Of a stretch of DNA of 64,000 bases, positions 45,920-46,030 are shown in pieces. Every line of letters starts with the position of its first letter. Positions within the stretch are counted from its first letter, which is position 1. Source of the DNA: Escherichia coli (GTDB lineage Bacteria; Pseudomonadota; Gammaproteobacteria; Enterobacterales; Enterobacteriaceae). A model generated the notes under the pieces. The model ran no database searches, was not told the origin of the DNA, and worked only from the letters and a program-made list of their open reading frames with translations. Made by a program: the position numbers and the translations under genes. The stretch lies in NCBI RefSeq assembly GCF_002854065.1, contig NZ_CP024147.1; one strand, written 5' to 3'.

Positions 45920-46030
45920 TTTCCTTCCTGAGTTATCCACAAAGTTATGCACTTGCAAGAGGGCCATTTTCACACTATCTTGCAGTGAATCCCAAACATA
46001 CCCCCTATATATAGTGTTCTAAGCAGCTTC
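45920..46030 (+). promoter_or_regulatory. nrdAB promoter region: DnaA box TTATCCACA (about 45933..45941), second DnaA-like box TTATGCACT, and two NrdR-box-like palindromes (about 45971..45987 and 46003..46018)
   Basis: Motifs read directly upstream of the nrdA ATG; consistent with the described nrdAB promoter. Coordinates approximate. Confidence 0.65.

What the first reader, a model, noticed from the sequence alone, without database searches (positions are those of the whole stretch)
45920..46030. nrdAB promoter carries a consensus DnaA box and paired NrdR-like palindromes
TTATCCACA and a second TTATGCACT lie immediately upstream of two AT-rich palindromes (cacactatcttgcagtg; ccctatatatagtgtt) that bracket the likely core promoter. 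The motifs that couple ribonucleotide reductase expression to replication initiation are clearly legible in the raw sequence.
Basis: partly seen in the sequence, partly recalled or inferred. Interest (0 to 1): 0.2.

Follow-up and report, generated by a model that had tools for sequence, protein, structure and literature searches.

The report
Known E. coli nrdAB promoter control region

Summary
The window is E. coli chromosome (yfaL / ypaB / nrdA-nrdB-yfaE), and 45700-46100 is 99% identical to K-12. Every quoted motif is present:
- TTATCCACA, 45933-45941
- TTATGCACT, 45945-45953
- palindrome 1, 45971-45987
- palindrome 2, 46003-46018

The two DnaA 9-mers form the double DnaA box that published ChIP-seq shows is occupied in vivo.

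The NrdR reading is only half right. Palindrome 2 is the essential NrdR box 1 (46002-46017). Palindrome 1 is the historically predicted box, now called box 0. It overlaps the -10 hexamer and the start site, so the palindromes do not bracket the promoter. A box 0+1 probe binds NrdR with KD >6 µM.

I compared 78 Enterobacterales nrdA upstream regions. Box 0 keeps five of the six NrdR key positions in 76 of 78, at a fixed 16-bp spacing from box 1. Box 2 occurs only in Escherichia and Pseudocitrobacter. Box 0 may therefore still function, but that is unproven.

Verdict: real feature, already known, low interest.

The parts
45933..45941 (+). DnaA box 1, TTATCCACA (perfect consensus)
   Evidence: It is the first half of the ChIP-seq double DnaA box at nrdA. 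It is present in all 23 'type A' Enterobacterales promoters, though its presence is part of how type A was defined.
45945..45953 (+). DnaA box 2, TTATGCACT (8/9 match). It lies 3 bp after box 1 and its last T is the first base of the -35 hexamer.
   Evidence: (direct repeat D4). Second half of the double box. The same position holds TTGTTCACT in other type A genera.
45966..45974 (+). Candidate third, weak DnaA-like 9-mer ATTTTCACA in the promoter spacer. It is a possible location for the published DnaA-ATP-specific site.
   Evidence: One mismatch to TTWTNCACA. The review says a third, DnaA-ATP-specific box exists, but I could not retrieve its coordinates. The assignment is inference only.
45953..45958 (+). 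-35 hexamer TTGCAA
   Evidence: Read from the sequence. There is a 17-bp spacer to TATCTT. It is conserved (TTGCAA or TTGCCA) with an invariant spacer length in 23 type A species. The simple promoter scan missed it because it matches only 8 of 12 positions.
45976..45981 (+). -10 hexamer TATCTT, inside NrdR box 0
   Evidence: TATCTT in 22 of 23 type A sequences. The literature places box 0 over the -10 region and the start site.
45985..45989 (+). Approximate transcription start. This gives a leader of roughly 107-110 nt.
   Evidence: Inferred from the -10 position and from the statement that box 0 covers the start site. I did not retrieve a mapped coordinate (searches failed).
45970..45985 (.). 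NrdR 'box 0', TCACACTATCTTGCAG. It matches 5 of 6 key positions, with C instead of A at position 6.
   Evidence: The probe sequence and KD >6000 nM for box 0+1 are. The C6A change gives 10x higher affinity. Positions 4, 8, 9, 11 and 13 are invariant in 76 of 76 Enterobacterales sequences at a fixed 16-bp linker.
46002..46017 (.). NrdR box 1, CCCCTATATATAGTGT.
   Evidence: It is essential for NrdR binding in EMSA and MST. All 6 key positions are conserved in 78 of 78 sequences.
46033..46048 (.). NrdR box 2, GTACTACAGGTAGTCT.
   Evidence: Box 1+2 probe KD is 113 nM. The A39C change is tolerated. A 5/6 match at this position occurs only in E. coli, E. albertii and Pseudocitrobacter among 78 sequences.
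46095..49998 (+). The regulated operon: nrdA (46095-48380), nrdB (48614-49744), yfaE (49744-49998)
   Evidence: NCBIfam equivalog matches at full length and RefSeq annotation of the same DNA.

Best explanation
This is the known control region of the E. coli class Ia ribonucleotide reductase operon nrdAB-yfaE.

DnaA arm. A double DnaA box (consensus plus 8/9 match, 3 bp apart) sits directly against the -35 hexamer and is bound cooperatively by DnaA. According to the literature, DnaA-ADP or low DnaA-ATP at these two sites helps RNA polymerase. High DnaA-ATP extends onto a third, ATP-specific site and occludes the promoter. RNR synthesis is thereby coupled to initiator status.

NrdR arm. [quoted passage not shown] In E. 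coli the high-affinity pair is box 1 (about +15 to +30) and box 2 (about +46 to +61) in the transcribed leader. I infer that it blocks the downstream RNA polymerase contact or promoter escape.

It is nevertheless the ancestral partner of box 1 across Enterobacterales.

Shown here: the identity of the locus, the motif positions, non-chance co-occurrence, and the conservation patterns. Taken from papers: DnaA occupancy, NrdR affinities, and the DnaA-ATP switch. Inferred: exact start site, the location of the third DnaA site, and the steric mechanism of NrdR repression.
For: - Locus identity: NrdA, NrdB and YfaE equivalog matches. The region is 99% identical to K-12, and none of the 6 SNPs in 401 bp falls in a motif. 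It is present in 5425 of 5426 complete E. coli genomes.
- DnaA: a consensus plus 8/9 box as a 12-bp direct repeat. It is the only such pair in the window, against 0.04 expected. ChIP-seq shows a DnaA-bound region at nrdA with this exact double box, and cooperative binding is lost on mutating either box.
- NrdR: box 1+2 KD is 113 nM, against more than 6000 nM for box 0+1. Mutating box 0 has no effect on EMSA, while mutating box 1 abolishes binding. The C at position 6 of box 0 explains part of the weakness.
- Conservation: box 1 matches 6/6 key positions in 78 of 78 sequences. The -35 hexamer, 17-bp spacer and -10 TATCTT are conserved in 23 type A species.
Against: - I could not retrieve a mapped transcription start coordinate or the original DnaA footprints (Tuggle & Fuchs 1986, Augustin 1994, Olliver 2010, Torrents 2007). 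The -35/-10/+1 placement therefore rests on sequence, conservation, and secondary statements.
- The simple sigma-70 scan did not call this promoter, which matches 8 of 12 positions.
- The dismissal of box 0 rests on in vitro assays with 57-58 bp probes.
- Box 0 is far better conserved than box 2. In Salmonella, altering the upstream box raised nrdAB expression in vivo. The in vivo operator may therefore include box 0.
- The ChIP-seq peak centre (2344805, about window 46035) lies roughly 90 bp downstream of the double box. This is within normal ChIP resolution but not exact.
Confidence: 0.88

Rival explanations
1. One reading: the NrdR operator is the pair formed by palindrome 1 and palindrome 2 (box 0 + box 1, 16-bp linker). 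NrdR sits on the -10 hexamer and start site and represses by direct promoter occlusion.
For: - This is the classical prediction cited.
- Box 0 matches 5/6 and box 1 matches 6/6 key positions, with centres 32 bp apart.
- This pair, not box 1+2, is conserved in 76 of 78 Enterobacterales sequences. The five invariant columns of box 0 are exactly positions 4, 8, 9, 11 and 13. If invariant columns fell at random among 16, the chance of all five being NrdR key positions is 6/4368, about 0.0014.
- Conservation holds in 'type B' genera, where the predicted -10 (TAGAAT) lies upstream of box 0. The -10 function alone therefore does not explain it.
- The Salmonella box-1 (equivalent to box 0) mutant is partly derepressed.
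Against: - E. coli NrdR binds the box 0+1 probe with KD above 6000 nM, against 113 nM for box 1+2.
- Mutating box 0 did not affect EMSA on a 185-bp fragment.
- Position 6 is C rather than the required A, and the C6A change improves affinity only 10-fold.
- The Salmonella authors caution that their mutation may have affected RNA polymerase binding.
Confidence: 0.1
2. Three-box operator. Box 0, box 1 and box 2 (centres 32 and 31 bp apart, on the same helix face) act together in vivo. Box 1+2 nucleates a tetramer, and the deliberately weak box 0 over the -10 hexamer and start site is filled cooperatively at high NrdR-dATP.
For: - The triple arrangement is unique in the window, against 0.06 expected.
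- Box 0 key positions are invariant, yet position 6 is never A in 76 sequences (C 70, T 5, G 1), even though A would bind 10x better. This suggests selection for a weak site.
- Higher NrdR oligomers (octamers and larger) are reported.
Against: - No experiment shows cooperative occupancy of box 0.
- EMSA on the 185-bp fragment carrying all three boxes was insensitive to the box 0 mutation.
- Most Enterobacterales lack box 2, so a three-box design cannot be general.
Confidence: 0.25
3. The motifs are chance matches in an AT-rich intergenic region and have no regulatory role.
For: Single-motif counts are not enriched. TTATNCACA occurs 4 times against 1.9 expected. The NrdR consensus occurs once against 0.5 expected. 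Two other TTATCCACA copies in the window (12629 and 32571) are not among the 16 ChIP-seq regions.
Against: - Composite arrangements are rare by simulation.
- The motifs are strongly conserved against variable linkers.
- Published ChIP-seq and binding constants apply to identical sequence.
Confidence: 0.01

Closest known systems
E. coli K-12 nrdAB (nrdAp) regulatory region
   Same: The same locus. 395 of 401 bases are identical over 45700-46100, and every motif is identical: both DnaA boxes, the -35 and -10 hexamers, and NrdR boxes 0, 1 and 2.
   Different: Six SNPs. One is in the promoter spacer (45964, C versus T). One is just 3' of box 2 (46052, C versus T). Four are upstream (45788, 45808, 45817, 45835). 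None is at a motif position.
NrdR operators of E. coli nrdHIEF and nrdDG
   Same: Two 16-bp partially palindromic boxes with C4, A6, A8, T9, T11 and G13, separated by 15 bp. They bind the NrdR-ATP/dATP tetramer with KD 138 and 160 nM, similar to 113 nM for nrdAB box 1+2.
   Different: nrdAB box 2 has a central AG rather than AT. nrdAB additionally carries an upstream box-like element (box 0) with a 16-bp linker and a C at position 6. The functional nrdAB pair lies wholly downstream of the start site.
Double DnaA boxes at polA, purH, nrdD, DARS1/2, datA and oriC R-boxes (ChIP-seq set)
   Same: A consensus TTATCCACA paired with a weaker 9-mer 2-3 bp away in the same orientation, and occupied in vivo.
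   Different: At nrdA the consensus box is the upstream member and the weaker box overlaps the -35 hexamer. Occupancy is modest (14x, against 60-220x at purH, polA and datA).
nrdAB promoters of Citrobacter, Klebsiella, Enterobacter, Pantoea and Erwinia ('type B', this analysis)
   Same: The box 0 - 16 bp - box 1 module and the upstream T-tract/TTGAC element are shared.
   Different: The predicted promoter is TTGTAC-16-TAGAAT, just upstream of box 0. The DnaA boxes lie downstream in the leader: TTATCCACA abutting box 1, TTAGTCACA 12 bp further on, and an inverted TGTGGATAA at +46 or +47. There is no box 2.

Membership tests
DnaA-regulated promoter with a double DnaA box | 9-mer matching TTATNCACA | tested here: met
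   TTATCCACA at 45933-45941 (0 mismatches) and TTATGCACT at 45945-45953 (1 mismatch)..
DnaA-regulated promoter with a double DnaA box | Second box 2-3 bp away in the same orientation | tested here: met
   A 3-bp gap (AAG) and a 12-bp direct repeat, AGTTATNCAC. It is the only such pair in 64 kb.
DnaA-regulated promoter with a double DnaA box | DnaA occupancy and an effect on transcription | not testable with these tools
   Literature on identical K-12 sequence: 14x ChIP-seq enrichment and cooperative binding lost on mutating either box; activation or repression by nucleotide state.
   Box 1 matches 6/6. Box 0 matches 5/6, with C at position 6. Box 2 also matches 5/6, so sequence alone cannot choose the partner.
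   A 16-bp linker, fixed in 76 of 78 Enterobacterales sequences.
   The literature reports this as not met: KD above 6000 nM, and the box 0 mutation is silent in EMSA.
NrdR operator, box 1 + box 2 | Two key-position boxes with a 15-bp linker upstream of an RNR operon | tested here: met
   46002-46017 (6/6) and 46033-46048 (5/6), with a 15-bp linker, 47 bp upstream of the nrdA ATG.
NrdR operator, box 1 + box 2 | High-affinity binding of NrdR-ATP/dATP | not testable with these tools
   Literature: KD 113 nM with ATP-dATP and 96 nM with ADP-dATP.
NrdR operator, box 1 + box 2 | Conservation of both boxes in related genomes | tested here: not met
   Box 2 reaches 5/6 in only 4 of 78 sequences (Escherichia and Pseudocitrobacter). 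Elsewhere it scores 0-4/6, with 73 of the other 74 at 3/6 or below. Box 1 is universal.

The most novel reading that the evidence does not exclude
It may instead be a functional element kept deliberately weak.

In 76 Enterobacterales sequences its only invariant columns are five of the six NrdR key positions. It sits at a fixed 16-bp linker from box 1. This holds in two promoter architectures that place the -10 hexamer differently. Position 6 is never the affinity-raising A.

Box 2, the in vitro partner, is confined to Escherichia and Pseudocitrobacter. Box 0 could therefore be the ancestral, and in most genera the only, partner of box 1. In E. coli it could be the third member of a phased three-box operator.
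Probability: 0.35. Interest if true: 0.35.

Novelty: already known. Interest (0 to 1): 0.15.

Why it matters
The region links dNTP supply to replication initiation through DnaA and to dNTP pools through NrdR, but all of this is established for E. coli. The practical value of this check is a correction: the textbook NrdR box pair that a sequence reader would pick is not the pair E. coli NrdR binds tightly in vitro. The comparative data add a modest open question. The conserved box (box 0) and the biochemically active box (box 2) are different sites. Mutating C4 and G13 of box 0 without touching the -10 hexamer would test whether box 0 matters in vivo.

Tried and rejected
- Single-motif enrichment tests were not significant. 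I replaced them with composite-arrangement simulations.
- The generic sigma-70 scan did not call the nrdA promoter because it matches only 8 of 12 positions. I assigned the -35 and -10 hexamers from sequence, conservation and literature statements.
- Primary papers were not held: Torrents 2007, Babu 2017 and Augustin 1994.
- I tried to get a single-base start site from Cappable-seq supplements and found nothing. The P. aeruginosa 5'UTR paper has no E. coli data.
- I looked for Salmonella promoter sequence in the text of Panosa 2010 and found none. I therefore could not confirm which architecture Salmonella has.
- An Rfam scan of 45000-46300 gave only one sub-threshold hit, 16 bits against a gathering score of 94. 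There is no RNA element in the leader or intergenic region.
- I considered box 0 conservation to be purely a -10 constraint. I rejected this as a sufficient explanation, because the same key positions are invariant in type B genera where the predicted -10 is TAGAAT upstream of box 0.
- An alternative register for type B box 0 (linker 14, also 5/6) exists. I treated it as less likely because the spacing is non-canonical.
- The 57-bp box 1-box 2 query found only 4392 of 5426 genomes. This is a megablast word-size artefact: B2 strains have linker SNPs that leave no 28-nt exact word. It is not absence.

Full report
**Identity of the locus**

The ORF at 46095-48380 is a full-length class Ia RNR alpha subunit (NrdA equivalog, 1643 bits). 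It is followed by NrdB (48614-49744) and YfaE (49744-49998). The autotransporter gene yfaL lies upstream on the minus strand.

The 801 bp around the finding match 5424 of 5426 complete E. coli genomes over at least 80% of their length. The annotated features there are ypaB and nrdA. Over 45700-46100 the window differs from K-12 MG1655 at 6 of 401 positions, and none of these is in a motif discussed below. Anything published for the K-12 nrdAB promoter therefore applies directly.

**The observation**

The quoted strings are present:
- TTATCCACA, 45933-45941
- TTATGCACT, 45945-45953
- cacactatcttgcagtg, 45971-45987
- ccctatatatagtgtt, 46003-46018

Individually the motifs are not unusual in 64 kb. 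TTATNCACA occurs 4 times against 1.9 expected. The NrdR consensus with up to 3 mismatches occurs once against 0.5 expected.

The arrangement is unusual. A consensus DnaA box with an 8/9 partner nearby occurs once, against 0.04 expected, and was reached in 4 of 100 simulations. Box pairs carrying the NrdR key positions (C4, A6, A8, T9, T11, G13) with 15-16 bp linkers occur only here. The expectation is 0.5, and the observed count was reached in 1 of 100 simulations.

**Anatomy**

- The -35 hexamer TTGCAA is at 45953-45958. Its first T is the last base of DnaA box 2.
- After a 17-bp spacer, the -10 hexamer TATCTT is at 45976-45981.
- This hexamer pair and the spacer length are conserved in 23 'type A' Enterobacterales promoters.
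- The second palindrome lies about +15 to +30 in the leader.

Two papers state the same. [quoted passage not shown] It is drawn "in the -10 region" while the new box is "downstream of the promoter region". The palindromes do not bracket the core promoter. I could not retrieve a mapped +1 coordinate, and 45985-45989 is my inference.

**DnaA**

ChIP-seq in MG1655 lists 16 DnaA-bound regions. One is at nrdA (coordinate 2344805, about window 46035, 14x over control). Its "double DnaA box" is gTTATCCACAaagTTATGCACTt, identical to 45932-45954.

The same paper notes that DnaA binds this pair cooperatively and that mutating either box disrupts binding. It also notes that only 13 of 32 genomic TTATCCACA copies are bound. 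That fits the two other consensus 9-mers in this window (12629 and 32571), which lack a partner and are absent from the ChIP list.

A review summarises the mechanism. There are three boxes, two indifferent to the bound nucleotide and one specific for DnaA-ATP. DnaA-ADP or low DnaA-ATP activates transcription. High DnaA-ATP represses it, presumably by excluding RNA polymerase.

A third DnaA-like 9-mer, ATTTTCACA (45966-45974, one mismatch to TTWTNCACA), lies in the spacer. It is my candidate for the ATP-specific site, but I could not check this against the original footprint.

**NrdR**

Rozman Grinberg et al. 2025 renamed the classical upstream box "box 0".

| Probe | Boxes | Effector | KD |
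|---|---|---|---|
| 58 bp | box 0 + box 1 | ATP-dATP | >6000 nM |
| 57 bp | box 1 + box 2 | ATP-dATP | 113 nM |
| 57 bp | box 1 + box 2 | ADP-dATP | 96 nM |

The box 0+1 probe has exactly the window sequence at 45965-46022. Box 2 is GTACTACAGGTAGTCT. The box 1+2 probe matches 45997-46053 except for its penultimate base, the 46052 SNP that lies in the 3' flank outside box 2. The authors recall that in earlier EMSA on a 185-bp fragment, mutating box 0 had no effect and mutating box 1 abolished binding. They conclude that boxes 1 and 2 are the true site.

A 2026 preprint attributes part of box 0's weakness to C at position 6, since the C6A change gives 10x higher affinity. It also shows that the odd central AG of box 2 is tolerated.

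In window coordinates:
- box 0, 45970-45985
- box 1, 46002-46017

**Comparative test done here**

I fetched nrdA loci from 80 species-representative Enterobacterales genomes. I compared the 260 bp upstream of the ATG in 77 of them plus the window.

| Element | Position relative to box 1 | Key-position result |
|---|---|---|
| Box 1 | reference | 6/6 in 78 of 78 |
| Box 0 | fixed 16-bp linker upstream | 5/6 in 76 of 78; the other two have a 1-nt shift |
| Box 2 | 15-bp linker downstream | 5/6 in only 4 of 78 (window, E. coli, E. albertii, Pseudocitrobacter); 0-4/6 elsewhere, 73 of the other 74 at 3/6 or below |

For box 0:
- Its only invariant columns are positions 4, 8, 9, 11 and 13.
- Position 6 is C in 70 sequences, T in 5 and G in 1. 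It is never A.
- Mean majority-base frequency is 0.99 at key positions, 0.64 at non-key positions, and 0.58 in the box 0-1 linker.

No other phased partner box appears in the other genera.

The pair that binds tightly in vitro includes a lineage-specific box. In Salmonella, altering either predicted box raised nrdAB expression. Only the downstream-box mutant reached the level of the nrdR deletion, and the authors warned of possible -10 effects. I treat a residual or cooperative role for box 0 as open, with probability about 0.35.

**Two promoter architectures**

The alignment separates two designs.

Type A has 23 sequences: Escherichia, Pseudocitrobacter, Yersinia, Serratia, Hafnia, Dickeya, Rahnella, Brenneria and Edwardsiella.
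- TTATCCACA lies upstream, and a second DnaA-like box abuts TTGCAA.
- The -10 TATCTT lies inside box 0.
- In Escherichia and Pseudocitrobacter the two DnaA boxes are 3 bp apart. In the others they are 12-13 bp apart.

Type B has 52 sequences: Citrobacter, Klebsiella, Enterobacter, Raoultella, Kosakonia, Pantoea and Erwinia.
- The predicted promoter is TTGTAC-16-TAGAAT, immediately upstream of box 0.
- DnaA boxes lie in the leader: TTATCCACA abutting box 1, TTAGTCACA, and an inverted TGTGGATAA.
- The promoter assignment in type B is by sequence only.

Box 0 keeps its NrdR-like invariants in both designs. This argues that its conservation is not merely a -10 constraint.

**Within E. coli**

The 61-bp segment from DnaA box 1 to the end of box 0 is present in 5425 of 5426 genomes. 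All but one are at 95% identity or better. A B2 strain (E2348/69) has a 13-bp deletion in the leader (46063-46075). Its SNPs fall only at non-key positions in the linker and in box 2 positions 1-2.

**Mechanism and verdict**

The DnaA arm is shown in the literature and is consistent with everything measured here. For NrdR, a tetramer on boxes 1 and 2 would overlap the downstream edge of an open complex. It would then block polymerase binding or escape. This step is my inference.

The finding is real, correctly located and essentially textbook. Its NrdR half reflects the pre-2025 view and misses box 2. Novelty: already known. Interest is low.

Noticed in passing
window 45838-45971; L085 (phage P7 AF503408) 1418-1551; L083 (E. 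coli plasmid p2 of strain EC19) 2425-2550: P1/P7/SJ46-family phages and about 217-235 E. coli plasmids carry a copy of the nrdA promoter upstream module: the T-tract, the TTGAC element, the double DnaA box, the -35 hexamer and the spacer. In P7 about 135 bp are nearly identical. The homology ends exactly at the start of NrdR box 0, where the phage has its own -10-like TATTGT. The phage therefore appears to have a DnaA-controlled promoter without NrdR boxes. P7 annotates only opposite-strand 'upf' ORFs there.
   Followed up: partly
L005-L081 (for example L012 Klebsiella oxytoca), about 80-45 bp upstream of the nrdA ATG: In Citrobacter, Klebsiella, Enterobacter, Pantoea and Erwinia the DnaA boxes are not upstream of the promoter. 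They lie in the transcribed leader: TTATCCACA abutting NrdR box 1, TTAGTCACA 12 bp further on, and an inverted TGTGGATAA about 30 bp after the first. This suggests DnaA acts there as a downstream roadblock. Close relatives of E. coli thus use a different DnaA geometry from E. coli itself.
   Followed up: partly
window 45843-45890: A T-rich tract is followed by TTGAC (45871-45875), which is identical in at least 90% of the 78 Enterobacterales sequences, and by a semi-conserved CCTT (45887-45890). The element sits about 115 bp upstream of the start site. There is no convincing -10 hexamer at the right spacing. It may correspond to the published upstream AT-rich, Fis or IciA positive elements, but I could not verify this.
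   Followed up: partly
window 45824-45967 (minus strand): The annotated 47-aa ORF ypaB is intact here. It runs antisense through both DnaA boxes and the -35 hexamer. The underlying sequence is absent from type B genera, so any apparent conservation of ypaB is confounded by the regulatory sites.
   Followed up: no
window 41637-45399 (minus strand): yfaL (1250 aa in K-12) is split in this window into a 173-aa ORF (45399-44878) and a 1127-aa ORF (45020-41637) that matches profile positions 159-1250. This suggests a frameshift or pseudogene in this strain, or a sequencing error.
   Followed up: no
window 46063-46075: Phylogroup B2 strains such as E2348/69 lack 13 bp (CGGAAAGAATTCC) of the nrdA 5' leader. 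About 1000-1700 of the complete genomes show this divergent leader type.
   Followed up: partly
window 12629-12637 and 32571-32579: Two further perfect TTATCCACA 9-mers have no nearby partner box. Neither is among the 16 ChIP-seq DnaA-bound regions in the literature. This is consistent with the reported preference of DnaA for double boxes.
   Followed up: partly
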